A DNA stretch of 36,012 nt from a virus (taxonomy: Duplodnaviria > Heunggongvirae > Uroviricota > Caudoviricetes): IMG/VR virus record IMGVR_UViG_2654587772_000001, one strand, 5' to 3'. A model generated the notes under the pieces. That model was given only the letters and a program-made list of their open reading frames with translations, searched no databases and was not told the DNA's origin. Position 1 is the stretch's first letter. Every line of letters begins with the position of its first letter. A program made the position numbers and the translations under genes. Shown here piece after piece: positions 4,165-27,716 of this stretch.

Positions 4165-6427
4165 AGCCTCCGGGCGTTTTGTCCCTCCGTCAGCATTTGC
4201 CGCAGGCACCGGTAAGACGTTTACCGGTGCTTATGCATGGAACGCGCCACGCGAGGCCGTCGGGCGCGAAAGACCCCTTACACGTGACGAGATGCGTCAG
4301 GTGCAAGGTGTTTTATCCACGATTAACCGCCTGCCTTACTTTTTGCGTTCGCTGTTTACTTCACGCTATGACTACATCCGGCGCAATAAAAGCCCGGTGC
4401 ACGGGTTTTATTTCCTCACATCCACTTTTCAGCGTCGTTTATGGCCGCGCATTGAGCGCGTGAATCAGCGCCATGAAATGAACACCGACGCGTCGTTGCT
4501 GTTTCTGGCAGAGCGTGACCACTATGCGCGCCTGCCTGGAATGAATGACAAGGAGCTGAAAAAGTTTGCCGCCCGTATCTCATCGCAGCTTTTCATGATG
4601 TATGAGGAACTCTGCGATGCATGGGGTGATGCGCATGGTGAAAAAGAATCGCTGTTTACGGATGAGGCGCAGGCTCACCTCTATGGTCATGTTGCTGGCG
4701 CTGCACGTGCTTTCAATATTTCCCCGCTCTACTGGAAAAAATACCGTAAAGGACAGATGACCACGAGGCAGGCATATTCTGCCATTGCCCGTCTGTTTAA
4801 CGATGAGTGGTGGATTAGTCAGCTTAAAGGCCAGCGTATGCGCTGGCATGAGGCGTTACTGATTGCTGTCGGGGAGGTCAATAAAGACCGTTCTCCTTAT
4901 GCCAGTAAACATGCCATTCGTGATGTGCGTGCGCGCCGCCAGGCAAATCTGGAATTTCTTAAATCGTGTGACCTTGAAAACAGGGAAACCGGCGAGCGCA
5001 TCGACCTTATCAGTAAGGTGATGGGCAGTATTTCTAATCCTGAAATTCGCCGGATGGAGCTGATGAACACCATTGCCGGTATTGAGCGTTACGCCGCCGC
5101 AGAGGGTGATGTGGGGATGTTTATCACGCTGACCGCGCCGTCAAAGTATCACCCGACACGTCAGGTCGGAAAAGGCGAAAGTAAAACCGTTCAGCTTAAT
5201 CACGGCTGGAACGATGAGGCATTTAATCCAAAGGATGCGCAGCGTTATCTCTGCCGTATCTGGAGCCTGATGCGCACGGCATTCAAGGATAATGATTTAC
5301 AGGTCTACGGTTTGCGAGTCGTCGAGCCACACCACGACGGAACGCCGCACTGGCATATGATGCTTTTTTGTCATCCACGCCAGCGTAACCAGATTATCGA
5401 AATCATGCGTCGCTATGCGCTCAAAGAGGATGGCGACGAAAGAGGAGCCGCGCGAAACCGTTTTCAGGCAAAACACCTTAACCGGGGCGGTGCTGCGGGA
5501 TATATCGCGAAATACATTTCAAAAAACATCGACGGCTATGCACTGGATGGTCAGCTCGATAACGACACCGGCAGGCCGCTGAAAGACACTGCAGCGGCTG
5601 TTACCGCATGGGCGTCAACGTGGCGCATTCCGCAATTTAAAACAGTTGGCCTGCCGACAATGGGGGCTTACCGTGAACTACGCAAATTGCCTCGCGGCGT
5701 CAGCATTGCTGATGAGTTTGACGAGCGCGTCGAGGCTGCACGCGCCGCCGCAGACAGTGGTGATTTTGCGTTGTATATCAGCGCGCAGGGTGGGGCAAAT
5801 GTCCCGCGCGATTGTCAGACTGTCAGGGTCGCCCGTAGCCCGTCGGATGACGTTAACGAGTATGAGGAAGAAGTCGAGAGAGTGGTCGGCATTTACGCGC
5901 CGCATCTCGGCGCGCGTCATATTCATATCACCAGAACGACGGACTGGCGCATTGTGCCGAAAGTTCCGGTCGTGGAGCCTTTGACTTTAAAAAGCGGCAT
6001 CGCCGCGCCTCGGAGTCCTGTCAATAACTGTGGAAAACTCACCGGTGGTGATACTTCGTTACCGGCTCCCACACCTTCTGAGCACGCCGCAGCAGTGCTT
6101 AATCTGGTAGATGACGGTGTTATCGAATGGAATGACCAGGAGGTCGTGAGGGCGCTCAGAGGTGCATTAAAACACGGTCTGAGAAGACCAAACCGTCAGC
6201 AAAGAAACGGAAGCCCGTTAAAACCGCATGAAATAGCGCCATCGGCCAGACTGACCCGGTCGGAACGAATGCAAATTACCCGTATCCGCGTTGACCTTGC
6301 TCAGAACGGTATCAGGCCGCAGCGATGGGAGCTTGAGGCGCTGGCGCGTGGTGCAATTGTGAACTATGGCGCAAAAGAATTTCATTACCATGTTCAGAAG
6401 GCGTGGGAAGCATTTTCGAGGTGGTAA
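4154..6427 (+). CDS. A: replication initiation endonuclease A (rolling-circle initiator)
   Basis: Track ORF 4112..6427 starts at TTG; first ATG is 4154 (MDVKASGRFVPP...), about 757 aa; long match to remembered P2 gpA including the HxH metal motif (PHWHMMLF) and the YxxK active-site region (AGYIAKYISK). Confidence 0.9.
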   Translation: MDVKASGRFVPPSAFAAGTGKTFTGAYAWNAPREAVGRERPLTRDEMRQVQGVLSTINRLPYFLRSLFTSRYDYIRRNKSPVHGFYFLTSTFQRRLWPRIERVNQRHEMNTDASLLFLAERDHYARLPGMNDKELKKFAARISSQLFMMYEELCDAWGDAHGEKESLFTDEAQAHLYGHVAGAARAFNISPLYWKKYRKGQMTTRQAYSAIARLFNDEWWISQLKGQRMRWHEALLIAVGEVNKDRSPYASKHAIRDVRARRQANLEFLKSCDLENRETGERIDLISKVMGSISNPEIRRMELMNTIAGIERYAAAEGDVGMFITLTAPSKYHPTRQVGKGESKTVQLNHGWNDEAFNPKDAQRYLCRIWSLMRTAFKDNDLQVYGLRVVEPHHDGTPHWHMMLFCHPRQRNQIIEIMRRYALKEDGDERGAARNRFQAKHLNRGGAAGYIAKYISKNIDGYALDGQLDNDTGRPLKDTAAAVTAWASTWRIPQFKTVGLPTMGAYRELRKLPRGVSIADEFDERVEAARAAADSGDFALYISAQGGANVPRDCQTVRVARSPSDDVNEYEEEVERVVGIYAPHLGARHIHITRTTDWRIVPKVPVVEPLTLKSGIAAPRSPVNNCGKLTGGDTSLPAPTPSEHAAAVLNLVDDGVIEWNDQEVVRALRGALKHGLRRPNRQQRNGSPLKPHEIAPSARLTRSERMQITRIRVDLAQNGIRPQRWELEALARGAIVNYGAKEFHYHVQKAWEAFSRW

Positions 6428-6537
6428 TCTAAATATGAAAAATCTGCACACCGAAACACTCTTGTAGGTTGATAATTTGCAAACTAGGTGGATTTACTCT
6501 TTGATGTGTAAGAAGTTATACTACAAAAAATTGATTT

Positions 6538-7458
6538 ATGGGCTTGGCGATGTATAACGATCCTTATAGTGACCCAAAAGCGTGGGAATCATATTTCAAA
6601 AATATTGTTTGGCTACATTATAAGCCTGCTAACTGTTGTGACTTGCCAGATGAGCATGGAGGCGACTTTGGGCTGGAGTGTTACACTCTGAGTGGTCATG
6701 TTTTTCAGTGTTACTTGCCTGAGCAGTCGAGTGATATTGATAAGCTTTATAAAGCGCAACAAAAAAAGATTTATACTGATATAAAAAAGTTTTCTCAGGA
6801 TAACATTAAAGAATTAGAGGAGCTTTTTGGCACATTAAAAATTAGCCGCTGGATATTAGCTACACCATATAATAAATCGGCGAAATTAAGTCAATATTGC
6901 ACAAAAAAATCATTAAAAGTAAGAGAGTTAGGGATTTCTTACGTTGCTGATGATTTTCAAATAGTAGTGCAAACAGATCGAAATTATATAGAAGAAGCGT
7001 TCTTTCTTCGCAAAAATAACTATCAATTAAGCTTTAATATAAATGATGCGACGGCTGAGAATGCTGCTAACTTTATTAGTGAAAATACATCTTTTTTAGA
7101 TAAGCTAAATTTAAAATTACCTAAGATAAATGATGATGTATCTAGGCAGGGTTTATATAGAGAGTTTTTAATACAAAAATATCTTGATTATCAAAACTTG
7201 CTGGATGCTTTGAAGAGAGACTGGGTTGATATCTATGAAATTATCTATAACTGTGTTCAACATAGAGAACGTAATTTGGTAGGTCTCTTTCTTCTTACTT
7301 CATCAGATGCGAAACCATCAGATATAATGAAAGATGAAATCGCTTTGTTAAAGAAATGTATTGAAGAGGAAGTTAGTACGCTTAAACAGGCTGACTTGGA
7401 TAAGATAACATGGGGAGTTATTTCTGATTGGCTTATAAGATGCCCTTTAGATTTTTAG
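6538..7458 (+). CDS. hypothetical protein, gene 1 of the AT-rich cargo operon (candidate effector component)
   Basis: 306-aa ORF in AT-rich DNA at the tin/old position; no motif recognised by eye apart from a Cys/His-rich N-terminal patch (CCDLPDEHGGDFGLECYTLSGHVFQCY); weak RBS. Confidence 0.6.
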   Translation: MGLAMYNDPYSDPKAWESYFKNIVWLHYKPANCCDLPDEHGGDFGLECYTLSGHVFQCYLPEQSSDIDKLYKAQQKKIYTDIKKFSQDNIKELEELFGTLKISRWILATPYNKSAKLSQYCTKKSLKVRELGISYVADDFQIVVQTDRNYIEEAFFLRKNNYQLSFNINDATAENAANFISENTSFLDKLNLKLPKINDDVSRQGLYREFLIQKYLDYQNLLDALKRDWVDIYEIIYNCVQHRERNLVGLFLLTSSDAKPSDIMKDEIALLKKCIEEEVSTLKQADLDKITWGVISDWLIRCPLDF

Positions 7459-7459
7459 A

Positions 7460-7936
7460 ATGGAAAAGCAAATGCATATAACGATAGATGAAATAATAGG
7501 AAGGCCGTTTACGTTTAATAAACGACCTGAACATTTGCCATGTGATATGAGACCATTGTGGCGTTGCAGTTTGTTGCTGATAATATTCCTTGTCACAGGG
7601 AGAGCTGGTTGCTGTTCTTTAAAAAAACTTCATTTAATTAATTGGATGTTAAAGTCAGAGAATAATGAAGCAATGTTTGAATTCTGGCTTTTAAACAAAG
7701 AAGGTTTAAAGCCTGAAGTAAGATTGGATCCAACTTTAGATAGAGCAATACAGCTATTATTAGCAGAGGATTTTATTTTGAGAAATGAACGAGCGTTCAA
7801 AATAAATGAAAAGGGGCTTAAGGTCGCTGAGAAATTGCTTTCTCTTGATGTGTTCAAAGAAGAAAGGTTGGTGCTAAATAAACATAAGGCTGGACTGTCC
7901 GAAACTAACATTAATAAAATATTTCAGGTGGGTTAA
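7460..7936 (+). CDS. hypothetical small protein, gene 2 of the cargo operon (candidate middle/adaptor component)
   Basis: 158-aa ORF; its ATG lies 1 nt after the gene 1 stop and its stop 1 nt before the gene 3 ATG, indicating translational coupling. Confidence 0.55.
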   Translation: MEKQMHITIDEIIGRPFTFNKRPEHLPCDMRPLWRCSLLLIIFLVTGRAGCCSLKKLHLINWMLKSENNEAMFEFWLLNKEGLKPEVRLDPTLDRAIQLLLAEDFILRNERAFKINEKGLKVAEKLLSLDVFKEERLVLNKHKAGLSETNINKIFQVG

Positions 7937-7937
7937 T

Positions 7938-9959
7938 ATGTCGTTGGAAATTATTTCATTGGAGTTAGTAGCAAATACTTCGGATGGGCGTTATGGTGTT
8001 AGTATACCTTTTTCAAATGGCTTGTTTTTATTAAGAGTTGAGAATTCTCATGGTAAATCAACTTGCATGAATGGGATTGCATATGCACTTGGGATGGAAA
8101 AGGCATTAGGTGTCGGTTCTGGAAAAATCCCATTCCCTCCATCTTTGACTAGAGCACTAACGACAAAAGATAATGTTGAAGTTAGTGTAATATCATCTTA
8201 TGTTTTGCTAAAAATAAAGAATCATAAGGGAATAGAAGCATCTTTGAAAAGGAATATTATCGGTCACGATAATAATAATGTTATTTATATAGATGAGAAG
8301 AATAATGTAAAAAGTAAGAGTGGTACTTATTTTTTACATAGAGAGGGCGATACTGAAAGGGAACGTGGTTTCTATAAGTGGTTAGCTGATTTTATAGGTT
8401 GGAGTTTGCCAAATGTTCCAAACCATAATGGGAAGGACACTATTCTTTATCCATCCGTACTTTTCCCTGCATGGTATGTTGAGCAAAAAAAAGGATGGTC
8501 GTCAATTATGGCGACTGTACCAACACAATTTGGAATTAAAGAGCCAAAGAAAAGAGCTCTAGAATTTTTAATGTCTCTTGATGTTAATGATAATATTTTA
8601 TTGCGTAGTTCGTTAAGAAATGAACTTGATATTATTTATCATGATTGGAAGTTAATTAAACACAATGCAGAAGTTATTGCTTCTAAATTGTCGTCAGTTG
8701 TCACAGGGATTCCTGAACAACCAGTGGCAAAATTTGATCATTATAAGATAGATTTGATTATTAAAAATGGTAGCGTCGTTAGATCTATTGTTGATGTTCG
8801 TAATGAACTGGAAAAAGAGTTGCAAGAAATTAAGTTTGACACTCTTGGTGAGCAAGAAGAACAAACTTTACAATTATCAGTGGTTAAGTTATTAGGTCAA
8901 AAAAATGATGAAATTAACTCTCTGGAATTAAAGATTAAAGAGATTTGTGAGCATAGAAGTTATATTCAATATCAAATTCAGGCGACCAAAAACAGATTGT
9001 ATAATCTGTTGGAAGATAAAAGGAAGTATGAAGATTTAAAGAAAATATCATCTTCGGATGCGTATAAGTCAACAGATTTAATGTCAAATATTTGTCCGAC
9101 TTGTGGTGCAAGTTATAATGATAATTTGCTAAGTTTTTCATCGCAAGAAAATCTGATGACATATGAAGATAGTTTGAACTTTATTAAAGAGCAAGTAAAA
9201 GCATTTGAGTTTGTTCTGTCGGATAGTGAAAAGCAATTAAAGCTTAAAGATGTTGAGAGGAGTGATTTAGAGGGGGAAATAGCCAAGATTAGAGTTGATA
9301 TTAATGCATTAAGGGAGTCAAAATATCCCTCAATGGTTGTTCAGGAGGAGTTTCTGAGACGTAAAATAAACATTGAGAATAAAATTAATGCCATTAACGA
9401 TGGCATTAAAAGTATATTGGACATTAGACTGGAGTTGGATTCATTACACCGTAGATATAAAAAGCTTATCGCGAAAAGAAAAGGGTTGCCAGATAATTTC
9501 TTGTCGCGTAATGATGCCGATAAGTTAAAATTTCTTAATAAAGAAGTCGTTGCACGATTAGAAAAATATAATTTTACAAGTTTTGATTCTAAACTTGTGT
9601 CAATATCAGAAGATAATTACTTACCTACTAGGGAAGGATATGATATAGGTTTTGACACATCAGCTAGTGATGGAATAAGAATCATTTGGGGTTATTTAAT
9701 AAGTTTATTTGTTGTTGGTTCTAAATTTCAAACAAATCACCCTGGATTGATTGTGTTTGATGAGCCTCGTCAACAAGAAGCAAATAAAGTAAGTTTTGCC
9801 GAGTTACTTAAAGATGCTGCAGAAACAACAAAAGGACAAGGGCAGATCATTTTTGCTACATCAGAAGATGAAAATGTCTTAAAAGAGGCATTAGAAGGGT
9901 ATGACTATACAATGATATCCTTTGATAAGAACAATGGGAAATTGTTGAGGAAATTATAA
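7938..9959 (+). CDS. SMC/Rad50-like ABC ATPase with coiled coil and CxxC hook (LmuB/DdmC-like), gene 3 of the cargo operon
   Basis: 673 aa; Walker A VENSHGKST (aa 34-42); long E/K/L-rich heptad-like region aa 280-540; CPTC at aa 386-389 (nt 9093..9104) mid coiled coil; signature-like SASDG and Walker B GLIVFDEP (aa 603-610); SD AGGTGG upstream. Confidence 0.75.
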   Translation: MSLEIISLELVANTSDGRYGVSIPFSNGLFLLRVENSHGKSTCMNGIAYALGMEKALGVGSGKIPFPPSLTRALTTKDNVEVSVISSYVLLKIKNHKGIEASLKRNIIGHDNNNVIYIDEKNNVKSKSGTYFLHREGDTERERGFYKWLADFIGWSLPNVPNHNGKDTILYPSVLFPAWYVEQKKGWSSIMATVPTQFGIKEPKKRALEFLMSLDVNDNILLRSSLRNELDIIYHDWKLIKHNAEVIASKLSSVVTGIPEQPVAKFDHYKIDLIIKNGSVVRSIVDVRNELEKELQEIKFDTLGEQEEQTLQLSVVKLLGQKNDEINSLELKIKEICEHRSYIQYQIQATKNRLYNLLEDKRKYEDLKKISSSDAYKSTDLMSNICPTCGASYNDNLLSFSSQENLMTYEDSLNFIKEQVKAFEFVLSDSEKQLKLKDVERSDLEGEIAKIRVDINALRESKYPSMVVQEEFLRRKINIENKINAINDGIKSILDIRLELDSLHRRYKKLIAKRKGLPDNFLSRNDADKLKFLNKEVVARLEKYNFTSFDSKLVSISEDNYLPTREGYDIGFDTSASDGIRIIWGYLISLFVVGSKFQTNHPGLIVFDEPRQQEANKVSFAELLKDAAETTKGQGQIIFATSEDENVLKEALEGYDYTMISFDKNNGKLLRKL

Positions 9960-10082
9960 ACTTTTATGTTGCTGCATTAGAATGCATGATTATTGTTTAT
10001 CTGTTAAGAGTGCTCCGTGCCAGTGTCGGCGCGGAGAAATCATGTCATGCACCTGCATTAAAACCGACCCATGAAGCGGGCG

Positions 10083-10101
10083 GGCGAGGCGGGGAAAGCA
10101 C
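10083..10101. other. cos site (19-nt cohesive end GGCGAGGCGGGGAAAGCAC)
   Basis: Sequence matches the P2 cohesive-end sequence as remembered; located in the GC-rich intergenic region upstream of Q, as in P2. Confidence 0.45.
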
Positions 10102-19235: not shown

Positions 19236-19775
19236 GTGACATGTAAAAAGAATGAAGGTGATGTTGTAAAGAAAATTGAACTGGTGCTGAAAACAATCGC
19301 GCGGACGGATTCTTATTTAAATTCAGCCAATACTAAATCAACGATATTACTAAGCTTAGCTTCAGCTGTAATTGTTGCTATTATAGCAAATTTTGACAAA
19401 GTTATATGTCTGGTAGATGTGGATAGTGATAGGATTTTTCTCTCTCTTTTATTGATTGTAATAGTTGGGTTATTGGTGATCTCTTTGTTATTTTCTCTAA
19501 AAGGTGTTACTCCAAATATCTCTAAGAGTGATAAGGAGAATACTTTTTCATTTGTTGATATATCAAGTTATTATAGTAGTCTTGATTGCTATTCTAGTAG
19601 TTTTAAGTCAGTGAGTGATCTGGAGTTGTTGGAGCAGTTAATTGCATTGAATTATACTCTTTCCAGAGCATTAACTAGCAAATATGAGATGCAAATCATA
19701 GCCATTGACTTTATAAAAATGGCTGTTTATGTGCTTTGTTTTTTAATATATGTGGTTGCTTTATCTAATTGGTGA
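19236..19775 (+). CDS. small membrane protein with 3 predicted TM helices (candidate membrane effector, SLATT/PycTM-like)
   Basis: 179-aa ORF from GTG 19236 (no in-frame ATG until near the end); SD AGGAAGG upstream; hydrophobic stretches STILLSLASAVIVAIIANF, IFLSLLLIVIVGLLVISLLFSL, MAVYVLCFLIYVVALS; AT-rich. Confidence 0.55.
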   Translation: MTCKKNEGDVVKKIELVLKTIARTDSYLNSANTKSTILLSLASAVIVAIIANFDKVICLVDVDSDRIFLSLLLIVIVGLLVISLLFSLKGVTPNISKSDKENTFSFVDISSYYSSLDCYSSSFKSVSDLELLEQLIALNYTLSRALTSKYEMQIIAIDFIKMAVYVLCFLIYVVALSNW

Positions 19776-19785
19776 AGGTTTTTGT

Positions 19786-21138
19786 ATGTCCATAAAGAGT
19801 ATTTATTTAGTATTAGATGAAAGGCTGGAAGAGATAATTTCAAAATCAAAATCGCAATCAGTCCATGATGCTATATTTGAATCAGTGGATAATACACAGT
19901 TGGCCACGGAGAGCTTAAGTAAATCTTCTGGTTTCGTAAGAAGTTCTATTTCATTGAAAAAAGATGTAGGTGGAGCTGATGTTCAAAGTTATCAGGTGAA
20001 AGATATTGTTAGAAATAAATTTGGCAAGCACGGTCCACTCATGACAAGTTTTGGATGTCATCCGGACTTTAATAAAATGGATGATGGTGAGGTGAGAAAT
20101 GGTTATTCCATTACCATGTTTATGGATATAATCGGCTCAACTAAACTTGGGGTTGTTTTTCCACCAGAAATAGTATTTAGAATCAAAAATGATATTATAA
20201 GATGTGCGATCGAAACAGTGAATGCATTTGATGGTCACGTCCATAGAATTATGGGTGATGCAGTAATGGCATTTTTCCGAAGTAATGACCGATATAAAAA
20301 CAATAAGATCGCAGACAGTGCAATTGATGCAATAAACTGTGCCGTTGTTTTGATTGAAATGTTCAAGGGGGTTGTTATACCTAAATTGAGTGATTTGGGA
20401 GTTGACGAAAACTTAGGAATAAGAATTGGTCTTGACTATGGCCCTCACGAGGAAGTGGTGTGGTCAAAATATGGCTATATGGAAAGTCATGAAGTGACTG
20501 CGACATCTTTTTTTGTTGATGTTGCGGCAAAACTTCAGCAAAAAGCTCCTAAAAACTCAATTATGATAGGTGCAAGTTTTGTAGAGTTATTAGGCCTTGA
20601 TGATGTTCAATTAAAACATAAAATTAACAGAAACAATGGCGTAGAACACAAGGAATTGTATTTAACCCCAAATTATAAAGATGCTTCAGGCAAACCAATA
20701 AATTACAGACAATATGTATTTGATAACGAACGTTATTGTAATTTGCTGCCTATAAATGATGAGGGGGGTAAACTCATTGTAAAAGCAACGCTTAAGAAGA
20801 GTGAAAATGATGTGTCTGATGATGAGTATATTTGTTGTTCTCGAATGATAAAAAAGGGTATGGGTATCTCATTTAAAGGGTACTATTACTCACAAGAACA
20901 GTACTCTAATCCCAGGTTCAAATTTCGTGTCGAAAATACAGGTCCTGATGCAGGTAATGTTGATAATAAGGGTAATCATGAGTCATATGAGGTAGCAAGG
21001 TACACTGGCGAGCGTTATTTTGCTAAGCATTGGGAAGATTGTCATTACAAAGGACTGCATTATATGTTTGTATCTTTTTGGAATGGGGATCAATTAATAG
21101 AAAGGGAGAGGTGTTTTTCAGTTTTTATTAACGATTAA
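19786..21138 (+). CDS. class III nucleotidyl cyclase-domain protein (candidate PycC-like cyclase)
   Basis: 450 aa from ATG 19786 (SD GAAGG 8 nt upstream; track start 19750 overlaps the upstream gene); motifs SITMFMDIIGSTKL (aa 108-121), HRIMGDAVMAFF (153-164), GIRIGLDYGP (211-220), SFFVDVAAKL (241-250) resembling the FxDIxGFT / IGDxxMA / GIHxGxV / VNxAARL blocks of adenylyl/guanylyl-type cyclases. Confidence 0.7.
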   Translation: MSIKSIYLVLDERLEEIISKSKSQSVHDAIFESVDNTQLATESLSKSSGFVRSSISLKKDVGGADVQSYQVKDIVRNKFGKHGPLMTSFGCHPDFNKMDDGEVRNGYSITMFMDIIGSTKLGVVFPPEIVFRIKNDIIRCAIETVNAFDGHVHRIMGDAVMAFFRSNDRYKNNKIADSAIDAINCAVVLIEMFKGVVIPKLSDLGVDENLGIRIGLDYGPHEEVVWSKYGYMESHEVTATSFFVDVAAKLQQKAPKNSIMIGASFVELLGLDDVQLKHKINRNNGVEHKELYLTPNYKDASGKPINYRQYVFDNERYCNLLPINDEGGKLIVKATLKKSENDVSDDEYICCSRMIKKGMGISFKGYYYSQEQYSNPRFKFRVENTGPDAGNVDNKGNHESYEVARYTGERYFAKHWEDCHYKGLHYMFVSFWNGDQLIERERCFSVFIND

Positions 21139-23735: not shown

Positions 23736-25057
23736 CAGTGAAATACTACGCCATTCTGACTAATCAGGGCGCAGCACGGCTGGCTAACGCGACGATGCTC
23801 GGCAGTAAGCTGAATCTGACGCAAATGGCCGTTGGTGATGCGAATGGTGTCTTGCCGACACCAGACCCGGCACAGACAAAACTGATTAACCAGAAACGCA
23901 TCGCGCCGCTGAATCTTCTGAGTGTTGACCCGAACAACCAGAGCCAGATTATTGCGGAGCAAATCATCCCTGAGAACGAGGGCGGATTCTGGATCCGTGA
24001 GATTGGGCTTTATGATGATGAAGGCGTACTCATTGCGGTGGCGAACTGCCCGGAAACGTACAAACCGCAGTTGCAGGAAGGCAGTGGTCGTACCCAGACT
24101 ATCCGCATGATTCTGGTTGTCACGAATACCGAAGCTATCACGCTGAAAATCGACCCGTCGGTGGTACTGGCGACCCGTAAATACGTGGATGATGAAGTCC
24201 TGGAATTAAAGCTGTATGTGGATGACCAGATGAGAAACCACATTGCCGCACAGGATCCTCATACCCAGTATGCGCAGAAACATAATCCGACATTTACCGG
24301 AGAACCAAAAGCGCCGACGCCTGCCGCAGGAAATAACACCACGCGGATTGCGACCACTGAGTTTGTTCAGGCCGCTATTACCGCTCTGATTAACGGTGCG
24401 CCAGCCACACTGGACACACTGAAAGAAATTGCCGCGGCCATTAACAATGACCCGAAATTCAGCACCACCATTAACAATGCGCTGTCAGGTAAGCAGCCAC
24501 TGGATGAGACGCTGACTCATTTGAGTGGAAAGGATGTAGCTGGTCTTCTCGCATACCTTGGTTTGGGAGAAGGTTCTGCGTTGCCTGTTGGCATACCAGT
24601 TCCTTGGCCTTCAGCTACGCCGCCAACAGGCTGGCTGAAATGCAACGGGGCTGCTTTTTCGGCTGAAGAATACCCGGAACTGGCAAAGGCTTACCCGACA
24701 AATAAATTGCCTGATTTACGTGGTGAGTTTATTCGTGGCTGGGATGACGGGCGGGGGATTGATACAGGTCGCTCTATTTTAAGTATTCAGGGGTATGCAA
24801 CGGAGGATCATGCTCATGGATTACCGTCAAGATCCACGATTGTGACTGATGCAACGATTAATTTCTATTTTGATGAAAGCTGGGTAAATAGTGGCACTGA
24901 CATTATCAAAAGAGGAAACACAAACGATGCTGGATTACCAGCACCGGATTATGGAACCTTTAAAACATATAAACAATCAGTGGCTGGTTTAGGTGCCGCA
25001 GCCTCAGAAACGCGTCCGCGTAATATTGCATTTAACTATATCGTGAGGGCAGCCTGA
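23732..25057 (+). CDS. H: tail fibre protein H (constant N-terminal part plus currently expressed variable C-terminus)
   Basis: 441-aa ORF; N-terminus MTVKYYAILTNQGAARLANA as in P2 gpH; C-terminal tail-collar/receptor-binding-like region; crossover site inside the gene. Confidence 0.85.
   Translation: MTVKYYAILTNQGAARLANATMLGSKLNLTQMAVGDANGVLPTPDPAQTKLINQKRIAPLNLLSVDPNNQSQIIAEQIIPENEGGFWIREIGLYDDEGVLIAVANCPETYKPQLQEGSGRTQTIRMILVVTNTEAITLKIDPSVVLATRKYVDDEVLELKLYVDDQMRNHIAAQDPHTQYAQKHNPTFTGEPKAPTPAAGNNTTRIATTEFVQAAITALINGAPATLDTLKEIAAAINNDPKFSTTINNALSGKQPLDETLTHLSGKDVAGLLAYLGLGEGSALPVGIPVPWPSATPPTGWLKCNGAAFSAEEYPELAKAYPTNKLPDLRGEFIRGWDDGRGIDTGRSILSIQGYATEDHAHGLPSRSTIVTDATINFYFDESWVNSGTDIIKRGNTNDAGLPAPDYGTFKTYKQSVAGLGAAASETRPRNIAFNYIVRAA
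24548..24573. repeat. invertase crossover site (hix/gix-like), left copy inside H
   Basis: The reverse complement TTCTCCCAAACCAAGGTATGCGA matches TTCTCTCAAACCAACGTTTTATGG at 26455..26480 (14/15 over the conserved core stretch); resembles hix/gix sites. Confidence 0.45.
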
Positions 25058-25659
25058 TGCATAAAGCAATATTAAATAGTGAGCTCATTGCAACAAAGGC
25101 AGGGGATGTTACCGTTTATAACTATGATGGTGAAACACGGGAATATATTTCCACTTCAAATGAATATCTTGCCGTTGGTGTCGGCATTCCGGCATGTTCC
25201 TGTTTAGATGCCCCTGGCACACATAAGGCTGGTTATGCAATCTGCCGTTCTGCAGATTTTAACTCATGGGAATATGTGCCAGACCATCGCGGTGAAACGG
25301 TCTATAGCACCGAAACAGGAGAATCAAAAGAAATCACCGCTCCGGGTGATTACCCTGAAAATACAACCACTATCGCCCCATTAACGCCATATGATAAATG
25401 GGATGGTGAGAAATGGGTGACGGATACCGAGGCACAGCATAGCGCCGCAGTAGATGCAGCAGAAGCACAGCGCCAGTCGCTGATTGATACTGCAATGGCT
25501 TCCATCAGTCTGATTCAACTGAAATTGCAGGCCGGACGTAAACTGACGCAGGCAGAAACAACCCGGCTTAACGCTGTGCTGGATTACATTGACGCGGTGA
25601 CGGCAACAGATACCAGCACCGCGCCGGATGTCATCTGGCCTGAACTGCCGGAGGCGTAG
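25057..25659 (+). CDS. G: tail fibre assembly chaperone (G / Tfa)
   Basis: 200-aa ORF with start overlapping the H stop; Tfa-like sequence with conserved C-terminal region (RLNAVLDYIDAVTATDTSTAPDVIWPELP). Confidence 0.8.
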   Translation: MHKAILNSELIATKAGDVTVYNYDGETREYISTSNEYLAVGVGIPACSCLDAPGTHKAGYAICRSADFNSWEYVPDHRGETVYSTETGESKEITAPGDYPENTTTIAPLTPYDKWDGEKWVTDTEAQHSAAVDAAEAQRQSLIDTAMASISLIQLKLQAGRKLTQAETTRLNAVLDYIDAVTATDTSTAPDVIWPELPEA

Positions 25660-26083
25660 GCCATTCAATATCTGGTGCACTGGAGGTATCAACCAGCTCC
25701 AGTGCATCCAGATAATCCAGCCACAAATTATATTGCGCCAGTTCCTCACCTTTCAGACGACCAATAGCGGCTTTACCGGGCCATTGCTTACTGTTCATGT
25801 ATTCGTTGGCCTGGTTAATTAGTAGCTGTCTTTCTGATTCAGTAATTTCAATAAGCTCTTCATGCGTGGGTGGAGGAATATCTGCCCACGCAGGCAGCCC
25901 ATCATCTCCGGCAATACGGATTTTTCCTTGTGGCGGTTCAGCCATAAACTCACTGATAATATTTTGATTTACTTCCTTAGCGTCTGATAAATCCCATCCC
26001 TCTGATTTATATTTATCAATCATATCCACAGGGAAAAAAGCATTATGCCTTGCGCTATAAACATATTCGTTCATATAAATCAC
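25631..26083 (-). CDS. alternative tail fibre assembly chaperone (inverted orientation)
   Basis: 150-aa ORF convergent with G, with related C-terminus (YNLWLDYLDALELVDTSSAPDIEWPTPP). Confidence 0.7.
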   Translation of the reverse strand: MIYMNEYVYSARHNAFFPVDMIDKYKSEGWDLSDAKEVNQNIISEFMAEPPQGKIRIAGDDGLPAWADIPPPTHEELIEITESERQLLINQANEYMNSKQWPGKAAIGRLKGEELAQYNLWLDYLDALELVDTSSAPDIEWPTPPAVQAR

Positions 26084-26094
26084 CCTGAATAAAA

Positions 26095-26463
26095 TTACTC
26101 ACCAACAGCCCACCAACTGTAATTCATCGATACCGTGTCGCTGGTTGATGACGTTCTGTAAGCAGAATTAAAGCCGGTTAACGTTGGGCCTTCTGCAGTC
26201 ATCACGAACCCTCGCCCAGCGCCTAAAGGCGCACCGCCATCACCAGAATGAGTAAGCATGGCGCAGTCCGCTTTTTTGGGGAAAGGGATGCTGAATGTAA
26301 TTCTCATTGTTTGCGTCGATAATGTCGGCGTAACCGCACCACGACCATATTGCAGGATTTTCCCGTTGGGTAATTTCATCCATCCATCACCACTGGCAAA
26401 AGAGGCCATGTCCGGTATCTGATTTTCCCCTGTCCCCACATCCCGTTTTGCCGCTTCTCTCAA
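26095..26463 (-). CDS. alternative tail fibre C-terminal segment (promoter-less and start-less; would fuse to H after inversion)
   Basis: Open frame on the minus strand running to the crossover site at about 26466 with no credible own start; Gly/Thr/Ser-rich fibre-tip-like sequence. Confidence 0.6.
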   Translation of the reverse strand: MREAAKRDVGTGENQIPDMASFASGDGWMKLPNGKILQYGRGAVTPTLSTQTMRITFSIPFPKKADCAMLTHSGDGGAPLGAGRGFVMTAEGPTLTGFNSAYRTSSTSDTVSMNYSWWAVGE

Positions 26464-26480
26464 ACCAACGTTTTATGGAA
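26455..26480. repeat. invertase crossover site (hix/gix-like), right copy
   Basis: TTCTCTCAAACCAACGTTTTATGGAA; inverted-repeat partner of 24548..24573. Confidence 0.45.
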
Positions 26481-26570
26481 TCGGTTAAATATGATGTTGA
26501 AAGAAGGGAGTGTCCTAGTATTGATTGTTAGATAAAAATGGAAAGTGCTGATTGTAACGGTATATTTTAA

Positions 26571-26598
26571 GATGGTAACACCAAATGGTGCTACCATC
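26571..26598. terminator. candidate bidirectional rho-independent terminator
   Basis: Hairpin GATGGTAACACC-AAAT-GGTGCTACCATC followed by TTTATT on the + strand and by an A/T-rich tract on the - strand; lies just downstream of the minus-strand 105-aa gene. Confidence 0.4.
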
Positions 26599-26606
26599 TT
26601 TATTAG

Positions 26607-26924
26607 TTATCTGTTCCTTCTGAGGATTCCGCTACTCCCTTGTGTTGTAGGGTTTAATTTTTTCCAATAATGATAACCTTGTGATGTAATCCTTAGAGAG
26701 GCAGTATCTACACTCCATCCATCAATACTTTCAGGAGAACCATCGAAGATTACCTTTCCTGTAAGATACCCATCGTCATGCAGAAAGGCGATATATCCAT
26801 AAACTTCTTTTAAATCACCAATTTCATTGACTAGGCGTTCCCACGCTTGAACAGTGATTCTCTCTGGATAGGCTTCGACAAAATATTTCAGTGTGGTAGT
26901 TTTTTTATTGGTATCGATGTTCAT
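26607..26924 (-). CDS. hypothetical protein (AT-rich moron between the invertible segment and the invertase)
   Basis: 105-aa ORF with ATG at 26924 and a good SD (AAGGAAA) upstream on the minus strand; AT-rich; no recognisable motif. Confidence 0.5.
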   Translation of the reverse strand: MNIDTNKKTTTLKYFVEAYPERITVQAWERLVNEIGDLKEVYGYIAFLHDDGYLTGKVIFDGSPESIDGWSVDTASLRITSQGYHYWKKLNPTTQGSSGILRRNR

Positions 26925-27122
26925 CAGATTTTCCTTTTATTGAGGTCAACCTATCTTACCATACTTATTTGTTTCACATGGGAATGCTAAGTGGGCTATG
27001 TATCCACTATCAGTAAATATTCTTATCCAGCAAGATTACTGTAACTGAGAGCTCCATAGCCTTGTCCGCTTGTACATATATAGATAATTCTGTGTCATTA
27101 TTCTGTTTTTATAGGGATTTTT

Positions 27123-27716
27123 ATGCGTATAGGTTATGTTCGTGTATCAACAAATGACCAGAACACGGAATTGCAGCGTAACGCGCTCGAGTGCGCAGGA
27201 TGTGAGCTGATTTTTGAGGATAAAATCAGCGGCACGAAGTCCGACCGACCGGGGCTGAAAAAACTGCTCAGAACATTATCAGCAGGTGACACTCTGGTAG
27301 TCTGGAAGCTGGACAGGCTGGGGCGTAGTATGCGGCATCTGGTCATTCTGGTTGAGGAACTGCGCGAACGCGGCATTAATTTTCGCAGCCTGACAGATGC
27401 TATTGATACCAGCACGCCGATGGGGCGTTTTTTCTTTCATGTGATGGGTGCCCTGGCTGAAATGGAACGAGAACTCATTGTCGAACGGACTCGGGCCGGG
27501 CTGGAAGCGGCCAGAGCCAAAGGTCGTATTGGTGGCAGACGTCCTAAACTCACCACGAGTGAGTGGGAGCAGGTCGGGCGTTTGCTGGCTGCAGGGGAGT
27601 CACGTCAACGCGTGGCACTGATTTTTGATATTGGCCTGTCCACGCTCTATAAAAAATTTCCCTCATCAGCGATAAAGAATAAATTGTGTCATCCCTTAGC
27701 CAACCGGGACAAATAG
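27123..27716 (+). CDS. serine DNA invertase (Hin/Gin/Pin/Cin family)
   Basis: 197-aa ORF; N-terminal resolvase catalytic domain with GYVRVST-DQ (Ser nucleophile), LVVWKLDRLGRS, and a C-terminal HTH; closely resembles Hin/Gin. Confidence 0.9.
   Translation: MRIGYVRVSTNDQNTELQRNALECAGCELIFEDKISGTKSDRPGLKKLLRTLSAGDTLVVWKLDRLGRSMRHLVILVEELRERGINFRSLTDAIDTSTPMGRFFFHVMGALAEMERELIVERTRAGLEAARAKGRIGGRRPKLTTSEWEQVGRLLAAGESRQRVALIFDIGLSTLYKKFPSSAIKNKLCHPLANRDK
27684..27710 (+). promoter_or_regulatory. late-promoter upstream element (candidate PF) TTGTGTCATCCCTTAGCCAACCGGGAC
   Basis: 21/27 identical to the element upstream of O (13146..13172); ends about 66 nt before the FI start; lies inside the 3' end of the invertase gene. 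Confidence 0.45.

What the first reader, a model, noticed from the sequence alone, without database searches (positions are those of the whole stretch)
7460..7936. 158-aa middle gene squeezed between effector candidate and ATPase
Its ATG is 1 nt after the gene 1 stop and its stop is 1 nt before the gene 3 ATG, so it is probably co-translated stoichiometrically. Small middle components in Lamassu/ABC-3C systems bridge the SMC-like arms and the effector. It has one hydrophobic stretch (LLLIIFLVTG) and a helical K/E-rich C-terminal half.
Basis: inference. Interest (0 to 1): 0.45.

Follow-up and report, generated by a model that had tools for sequence, protein, structure and literature searches.

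The report
LmuC middle gene of prophage Lamassu
The 158-codon gene is real and is lmuC, the small winged-helix middle subunit of a three-gene Lamassu anti-phage system carried by a P2-like prophage of E. coli. It is an untested member of a known defence family, not a new kind of system.

Summary
The ORF 7460-7936 (+) exists exactly as described. It starts 1 nt after the upstream stop and ends 1 nt before the downstream ATG. RefSeq instead uses a second in-frame ATG at 7472 (154 aa).

The three genes match PADLOC's Lamassu models: LmuA 1e-29, LmuC 2.5e-23, LmuB 1e-98. They form a 31-36 % GC cargo island between the replicase gpA and the portal gpQ of a P2-like prophage. This is the published P2 defence hotspot.

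The order lmuA-lmuC-lmuB, with junctions from -11 to +13 nt, holds in all 14 related loci examined.

By analogy with solved Lamassu complexes (LmuA1:LmuB2:LmuC1), LmuC most likely clamps the LmuA C-terminal domain to the folded LmuB coiled coils and helps bind DNA.

This is a new member of a known kind and of low interest.

The parts
6493..6522 (+). Sigma-70-like promoter candidate upstream of lmuA (TTTACT-18-TATACT)
   Evidence: This is a consensus scan only (9 of 12 matches). It is the only + strand site between gpA and lmuA. In strain FDAARGOS_1249 an IS5 element sits in this gpA-lmuA spacer.
6538..7458 (+). lmuA, the effector subunit (306 aa; RefSeq start 6550, 302 aa). It has an N-terminal restriction-endonuclease-fold domain (about residues 1-160) and a helical C-terminal domain (about residues 170-306).
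7460..7936 (+). lmuC, the middle component and the gene of the finding (158 aa; alternative start 7472, 154 aa)
7502..7567 (+). The most conserved peptide of LmuC (residues 15-36, KPFTFxKRPExLPCDMRPLWRC). It is an extended N-terminal arm with lower model confidence and is a candidate partner-binding segment.
   Evidence: The invariant columns are P16 F17 T18 F19 L26 P27 C28 M30 R31 P32 W34. F19 and R31 are nearly invariant across the wide family. pLDDT is 59-73 here against about 90 elsewhere. The role as an interface is inference.
7541..7804 (+). Winged-helix core of LmuC (residues 28-115). Helix 28-46 contains LLLIIFLVTG. It is followed by strand 51-53, helices 54-64, 67-78 and 91-102, and the beta-hairpin wing at 106-115.
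7927..7932 (+). Shine-Dalgarno-like GGTGGG inside the last codons of lmuC, 5 nt upstream of the lmuB ATG
   Evidence: Read directly from the sequence. The equivalent purine-rich motif is kept in the Xenorhabdus, Proteus, Citrobacter and Yersinia loci.
7938..9959 (+). lmuB, a Rad50/SMC-like ABC ATPase (673 aa). Walker A GKS is at residues 39-41 (nt 8052-8060). The CxxC zinc-hook motif C386-C389 is at nt 9093-9104. The signature-like SASDG starts at residue 575. Walker B LIVFDE is at residues 604-609 (nt 9747-9764).
   Evidence: PADLOC LmuB PDLC03863 scores 1.1e-98 over the full length, and nine other LmuB models also hit. There is a weak Pfam AAA_23 hit. The motifs were located by script.
6450..10000 (.). 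Low-GC cargo island (31-36 % GC, against 51-57 % in the flanks) in the gpA-gpQ hotspot of the P2-like prophage
   Evidence: From the composition profile. The flanks are annotated as replication endonuclease, portal and terminase. 1550 E. coli genomes match part of the 6400-10100 query (which includes the gpA end and the cos-proximal flank), but only 31 cover at least 80 % of it. The hotspot is described in PMC13586616.

Best explanation
Gene 2 is lmuC, the middle component of a short, type II Lamassu (ABC-3C) defence operon, lmuA-lmuC-lmuB. The operon is carried as cargo in the gpA-gpQ defence hotspot of a P2-like E. coli prophage.

LmuC is a soluble, basic protein of about 18 kDa (pI 8.9). 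It consists of a conserved N-terminal arm, a winged-helix domain and three C-terminal helices.

The following mechanism is inferred from solved homologous complexes and is not shown here. One LmuC binds a dimer of the Rad50-like LmuB and one LmuA. [quoted passage not shown] This keeps the nuclease-fold effector monomeric and inactive.

LmuC also contacts one LmuB head and, with its winged helix, the backbone of duplex DNA next to a DNA end held by LmuB. When phage replication produces the triggering DNA structure, LmuB ATPase-driven rearrangement releases LmuA. LmuA then oligomerises and destroys DNA, aborting the infection.

The abutting or overlapping gene junctions ensure that the three subunits are made together from one mRNA.
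For: Shown here:
- All three genes hit PADLOC Lamassu models.
- The LmuC model is confident. It matches the solved LmuC chains 9ny5_C and 9hqx_d over 117-120 residues, against about 75-85 residues for most generic winged-helix hits.
- LmuA has a restriction-endonuclease-fold N-terminal domain and resembles solved LmuA.
- LmuB has Walker A, Walker B and a central CxxC motif.
- The triad and its tight junctions are conserved in 14 of 14 related loci across four phyla.
- The three proteins diverge in parallel, from about 60/55/57 % identity in close loci to about 32/32/31 % in distant ones.
- The island is low in GC and lies in the P2 hotspot.
- No + strand terminator-like site lies between the genes.

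From papers:
- The complex is A1B2C1, LmuC is central, and LmuC-LmuB, LmuC-LmuA and LmuC-DNA contacts are needed for defence (PMC12663957; 10.1101/2025.03.14.643221; 10.1101/2025.06.23.660979).
- Deleting lmuC abolishes defence in other Lamassu systems (10.1101/2022.05.11.491447).
Against: - There is no detectable sequence similarity to any solved LmuC, with a single sequence or with a family profile.
- No Pfam or NCBIfam family covers LmuC or the LmuA C-terminal domain of this subtype, so the interfaces may differ from the solved Cap4-type systems.
- The LmuA active-site motif is QxY rather than the usual QxK, so nuclease chemistry is not assured.
- No complex model, binding data or phage assay exists for this system.
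Confidence: 0.85

Rival explanations
1. Gene 2 is LmuC but works differently from the solved Cap4-type systems. For example, it could be a kleisin-like head-binding subunit or a pure scaffold without a role in DNA binding, because this LmuC/LmuA-CTD subtype is unrelated in sequence to the solved ones.
Against: The protein is basic, with invariant K55 K56 at the start of the second winged-helix helix and basic residues in the wing. PMC12663957 reports that predicted complexes of 14 short Lamassu systems place LmuC as in the solved one.
Confidence: 0.1
2. Gene 2 is a free-standing winged-helix transcription factor (MarR/PadR-like) that regulates the operon rather than a structural subunit.
For: The best fold matches are MarR, PadR, QsrR and RosR repressors. 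There are weak HTH_45 hits.
Against: The gene always lies between lmuA and lmuB with overlapping or abutting junctions, never upstream or divergent. It hits the LmuC HMM. The matches to repressors cover only the roughly 75-85 residue winged-helix core, whereas LmuC chains align over about 120 residues. Solved LmuC proteins give the same repressor-like fold hits yet are complex subunits.
Confidence: 0.03
3. Gene 2 is a serine/threonine protein kinase, as NCBI names many homologues, or a membrane-anchored protein by virtue of the hydrophobic stretch.
For: Sources give the name 'serine/threonine protein kinase'. The Kyte-Doolittle 19-residue maximum is 1.93.
Confidence: 0.01

Closest known systems
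LmuC (DdmB) of Vibrio cholerae Lamassu Vc-Cap4 (PDB 9ny5 chain C) and LmuC of Salmonella enterica LmuACB (PDB 9hqx chain d)
   Different: Aligned identity is only 10-13 %, and there is no sequence or profile match. The partner LmuA here is not a Cap4 nuclease; it is a divergent restriction-endonuclease-fold domain with a QxY motif. LmuB here has a CxxC zinc hook, which the V. cholerae LmuB lacks. The function of this system is untested.
ABC-3C middle components MC1-MC8 (classification cited in 10.1101/2025.03.14.643221)
   Same: The operon position and size are the same, and it belongs to a three-component ABC ATPase conflict system.
   Different: No Pfam family above noise matched this protein or 63 relatives. 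That Pfam holds models for MC1-MC8 is my recollection and was not checked here, so the MC type is unassigned.
Lamassu-Mrr of E. coli SE15 (tested in 10.1101/2022.05.11.491447)
   Same: It is an E. coli Lamassu-family system with a restriction-endonuclease-type effector, and lmuC deletion abolished defence there.
   Different: It is not the same locus. The lmuC DNA of this window occurs in 31 complete E. coli genomes, none of which is SE15. Protein-level relatedness to the SE15 system was not tested.
MarR/PadR-type winged-helix repressors; kleisin and KITE winged helices of SMC complexes
   Same: They share the winged-helix core fold. Kleisin and KITE subunits are also small winged-helix partners of SMC-type ATPases.
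   Different: There is no dimerisation module of the MarR kind. The operon position is fixed inside a defence operon. Solved LmuC binds the coiled-coil apex and the effector rather than bridging two heads as a kleisin does.

Membership tests
Lamassu type II (LmuA-LmuC-LmuB; ABC-3C) | A Rad50/SMC-like ABC ATPase (LmuB) with Walker A and B motifs split by a coiled coil | tested here: met
   PADLOC LmuB PDLC03863 scores 1.1e-98 over the full length. GKS is at residues 39-41, LIVFDE at 604-609 and a central CxxC at 386-389.
Lamassu type II (LmuA-LmuC-LmuB; ABC-3C) | LmuA with an N-terminal effector domain and a helical C-terminal domain, encoded first | tested here: met
Lamassu type II (LmuA-LmuC-LmuB; ABC-3C) | A short middle gene (lmuC) between lmuA and lmuB in one operon | tested here: met
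   The junctions are +1 (or +13) and +1 nt in the window. The same order is found in 14 of 14 related loci.
LmuC protein family | Match to a curated LmuC profile | tested here: met
   PADLOC PDLC03871 scores 2.5e-23 (80.8 bits), covering model positions 1-148 of 156.
LmuC protein family | Fold like experimentally solved LmuC | tested here: inconclusive
LmuC protein family | Assembles as LmuA1:LmuB2:LmuC1 and contacts the LmuA C-terminal domain, the LmuB coiled coils and DNA | not testable with these tools
   No multimer prediction was available. Known only for the V. cholerae and Salmonella systems.
Lamassu type II (LmuA-LmuC-LmuB; ABC-3C) | Anti-phage or anti-plasmid activity that needs all three genes | not testable with these tools
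   No experiment on this locus was found in the papers I read. Requirement for lmuC has been shown for other Lamassu systems.
ABC-3C middle-component types MC1-MC8 (Pfam) | Match to one of the MC family profiles | tested here: not met
   No Pfam family at E<=0.01 matched this protein, and none beyond scattered HTH hits matched 64 family members. That the MC profiles are present in the Pfam copy was assumed, not verified.

The most novel reading that the evidence does not exclude
This LmuA/LmuC/LmuB triad may be a distinct, uncharacterised Lamassu subtype. Its LmuC and LmuA C-terminal domain fall outside every Pfam family. Its effector has a restriction-endonuclease fold but an invariant QxY in place of the catalytic QxK. 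It might therefore use different effector chemistry, or a different LmuC-effector interface, from the solved Cap4-type systems. One candidate interface is the invariant LmuA tail DWLxRCPLDF docking on the conserved LmuC N-terminal arm.
Probability: 0.15. Interest if true: 0.45.

Novelty: new member of a known kind. Interest (0 to 1): 0.2.

Why it matters
The result gives three "hypothetical" E. coli prophage genes a function. RefSeq annotates them as hypothetical in the strains listed, and NCBI mislabels many homologues of the middle gene as "serine/threonine protein kinase". It also adds a Lamassu subtype that is far in sequence from the solved ones, has a zinc hook and has an unusual nuclease-fold effector. 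That subtype could be used to test how general the LmuC "clamp and DNA-contact" mechanism is. Finally, it shows a P2-like prophage carrying two defence systems, Lamassu and Pycsar. It does not open a new question.

Tried and rejected
- **PDB sequence searches.** Searches with each of the three proteins, and with a 64-member LmuC profile, found nothing significant.
- **Family libraries.** Pfam and NCBIfam gave no family for any of the three genes. PHROGs gave only "unknown function" families; the one for gene 2 covers residues 63-158 only.
- **Viral contigs.** A scan with the wide alignment failed for lack of a conserved stretch. The deposited-phage collection has no DNA or protein match to the cassette.
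- **RNA hairpin.** A terminator-like hairpin at 7502-7528 inside the 5' part of lmuC was tested as an RNA structure and is no better than shuffles (z 0.24).
- **Membrane segment.** This reading of LLLIIFLVTG was rejected on the model and on family variation.
- **Kinase name.** Rejected.
- **Identity with the SE15 Lamassu-Mrr.** Not supported at the DNA level.
- **Species-representative genomes.** This scan returned only 3 loci, so synteny was extended with look-ups of exact proteins and with plasmid records.

Full report
**Observation**

The window holds an ORF at 7460-7936 (+) of 158 codons. The upstream ORF (6538-7458) ends with TAG at 7456-7458, and one base separates it from the ATG at 7460. 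The ORF ends with TAA at 7934-7936, and one base separates that from the ATG at 7938 of a 673-codon ORF.

In this AT-rich stretch stop codons are expected at 0.086 per codon. A 158-codon open frame therefore has a chance probability of about 7e-7. The antisense 93-codon ORF (7630-7911) has no support.

The start is ambiguous. A second in-frame ATG at 7472 is the start in RefSeq (WP_000548273.1, 154 aa) and in most close homologues. In the Xenorhabdus and Proteus loci the ATG next to the stop is out of frame, so only the downstream ATG can be used. In the Citrobacter and Yersinia loci only the ATG 1 nt after the stop exists. Residues 1-8 are unconserved and have low model confidence. With either start, the gene abuts its neighbours.

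**Context**

The window is a P2-like prophage of E. coli and is 100 % identical to strain ST2747 over the cassette. RefSeq annotates the replication endonuclease (gpA) upstream, and the portal and terminase downstream on the other strand.

The three ORFs form an island of 31-36 % GC between flanks of 51-57 % GC. The gpA-gpQ interval is the main published defence hotspot of P2-like phages (PMC13586616). 1550 of 5426 complete E. coli genomes match part of the 6400-10100 query, which includes the gpA end and the cos-proximal flank, but only 31 carry the cassette. In those 31 it is always single-copy, chromosomal and at least 99.6 % identical. No deposited phage genome carries it.

A sigma-70-like site lies upstream of the first gene, and no + strand terminator-like site lies between the genes.

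**Identity of the three genes**

PADLOC-DB models give LmuA (PDLC03852, 1.1e-29), LmuC (PDLC03871, 2.5e-23, nearly the full model) and LmuB (PDLC03863, 1.1e-98, plus nine other LmuB models). Pfam, NCBIfam and PDB sequence searches give nothing significant for any of them.

- **LmuB.** It has a Walker A motif (GKS at residues 39-41), a central CxxC (residues 386-389) as in zinc-hook LmuB/Rad50 proteins, a signature-like SASDG, and a canonical Walker B (LIVFDE at residues 604-609).

**The middle protein**

A profile search of 1.84 billion cluster representatives found 566 relatives at E<=1e-3 (265 at E<=1e-10). Nearly all are 145-182 aa and match over their whole length. Relatives occur on plasmids of Pantoea, Priestia, Clostridium, Arthrobacter, Anabaena, Sinorhizobium and others.

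An AlphaFold2 model from 24 homologues is confident (pLDDT 85, pTM 0.81). Its elements, in order, are:

- an extended N-terminal arm (residues about 15-27);
- helix 28-46, strand 51-53, and helices 54-64, 67-78 and 91-102;
- a beta hairpin at 106-115, which together with the preceding elements forms a winged helix with an inserted helix;
- three further helices.

It is 10 residues long, is bounded by R35 and R48, and carries polar residues in relatives. It is not a membrane segment.

The protein is basic (pI 8.9, net charge +4). K55 and K56 are invariant at the start of the second helix, and there are basic residues in the wing.

The most conserved peptide of the family is the N-terminal arm (PFTFxKRPExLPCDMRPLW). 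This arm is less confidently modelled in isolation (pLDDT 59-73). I infer that it becomes ordered on a partner. In V. cholerae LmuC, N-terminal residues (N15, E17) lie at the LmuA interface.

**Synteny**

They do not. I examined 14 related loci:

- Xenorhabdus, Citrobacter and Proteus genomes;
- a Yersinia P2-like prophage with the cassette in the same gpA-portal slot;
- seven metagenomic or draft contigs;
- plasmids of Priestia, Anabaena and Clostridium.

All 14 carry a 300-333 aa LmuA homologue, the 151-166 aa LmuC homologue and a 622-679 aa LmuB homologue, in that order on one strand. The homology was confirmed by tblastn. Two loci are incomplete in the data: L005 is a 1.2 kb contig cut in both outer genes, and the Xenorhabdus lmuB frame stops after 336 codons.

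Identities fall in parallel for the three proteins, from about 60/55/57 % in close loci to about 32/32/31 % in distant ones.

Junctions range from an 11-nt overlap to a 13-nt gap. The one called gap of 200 nt (L008) has an alternative ATG that overlaps the lmuC stop. An SD-like GGTGGG within the last lmuC codons precedes the lmuB ATG and is kept in close relatives.

The neighbourhoods are defence-like or mobile: a type I restriction system, TIR-domain proteins, an integrase, a plasmid replication gene and prophages.

**Mechanism**

What is shown here is family membership, fold, operon structure and co-inheritance. What follows is inferred from the solved V. cholerae and Salmonella systems.

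- One LmuC joins an LmuB dimer and one LmuA.
- LmuC also contacts the DNA duplex backbone, while LmuB caps a DNA end.
- The complex sequesters monomeric LmuA. On activation, LmuA is released and oligomerises into an active nuclease, causing abortive infection.
- Mutations in the LmuC-LmuB, LmuC-LmuA and LmuC-DNA contacts abolish defence in those systems. Deleting lmuC abolishes defence in other Lamassu types.

Because the solved complex is A1B2C1, tight coupling explains co-expression but not stoichiometry. The separate SD-like site before lmuB may allow higher LmuB output, which is my inference.

**Comparison and novelty**

This is a Lamassu type II system of the short kind: LmuB is 673 aa with a zinc hook. 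Its LmuC and LmuA C-terminal domain are unrelated in sequence to the solved ones and are not covered by any Pfam family. Its effector is a divergent restriction-endonuclease fold.

It is not the E. coli SE15 Lamassu-Mrr tested earlier, at least at the DNA level. I found no experiment on this locus in the papers I read.

PADLOC already recognises all three genes. I therefore rate it a new member of a known kind, of low interest. There is a modest chance (about 0.15) that the subtype differs in effector chemistry or interface.

**Limits**

Noticed in passing
window 19236-21138 (+): A second low-GC island (34-36 % GC) lies inside the tail-gene region and encodes a Pycsar system. ORF 19236-19775 is PycTM (PADLOC 8.5e-29; Pfam PF18967). 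ORF 19750-21138 is the PycC cyclase (PADLOC 1.6e-128). The effector gene lies upstream of the cyclase and overlaps it by 26 nt. The prophage therefore carries two defence systems.
   Followed up: partly
window 25057-27716: This looks like an invertible tail-fibre segment. A serine recombinase/invertase is at 27123-27716 (Resolvase + HTH_7). An alternative tail-fibre C-terminus (26095-26463) and assembly protein (25631-26083) lie on the minus strand, opposite a plus-strand assembly gene (25057-25659).
   Followed up: partly
window 6538-7458 (LmuA residues 42-59 and 297-306): The effector has a restriction-endonuclease fold, but its invariant motif is GDxGxE...QCY, that is QxY where Mrr-type nucleases have QxK. 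K77, D81 and K84 are invariant in the next helix. The extreme C-terminus DWLxRCPLDF is invariant down to 25 % identity. In the Priestia homologue D43 is replaced by Gly.
   Followed up: partly
homologues of window 7460-7936 in NCBI records (e.g. H59, H62, P0002-P0006, P0032): Many homologues of this 154-158 aa winged-helix protein are named 'serine/threonine protein kinase' in NCBI and UniRef, although no kinase domain is detectable. This looks like a propagated misannotation.
   Followed up: partly
L013 (E. coli FDAARGOS_1249, NZ_CP069459.1) 465-1433: An IS5-family element is inserted between gpA and lmuA, in the presumed promoter region of an otherwise identical cassette. Its effect on expression is unknown.
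   Followed up: no
L002 (Xenorhabdus sp. PB62.4) 6473-7483: The lmuB reading frame ends after 336 codons, about 84 nt before the contig end. This may be a truncated or pseudogenised lmuB, or an assembly artefact.
   Followed up: no
PHROGs phrog_22260 versus window 7646-7936: The PHROG family for this gene is only 96 positions long and matches residues 63-158. The gene was therefore probably called from an internal Met in the phage/prophage set used to build the family.
   Followed up: no
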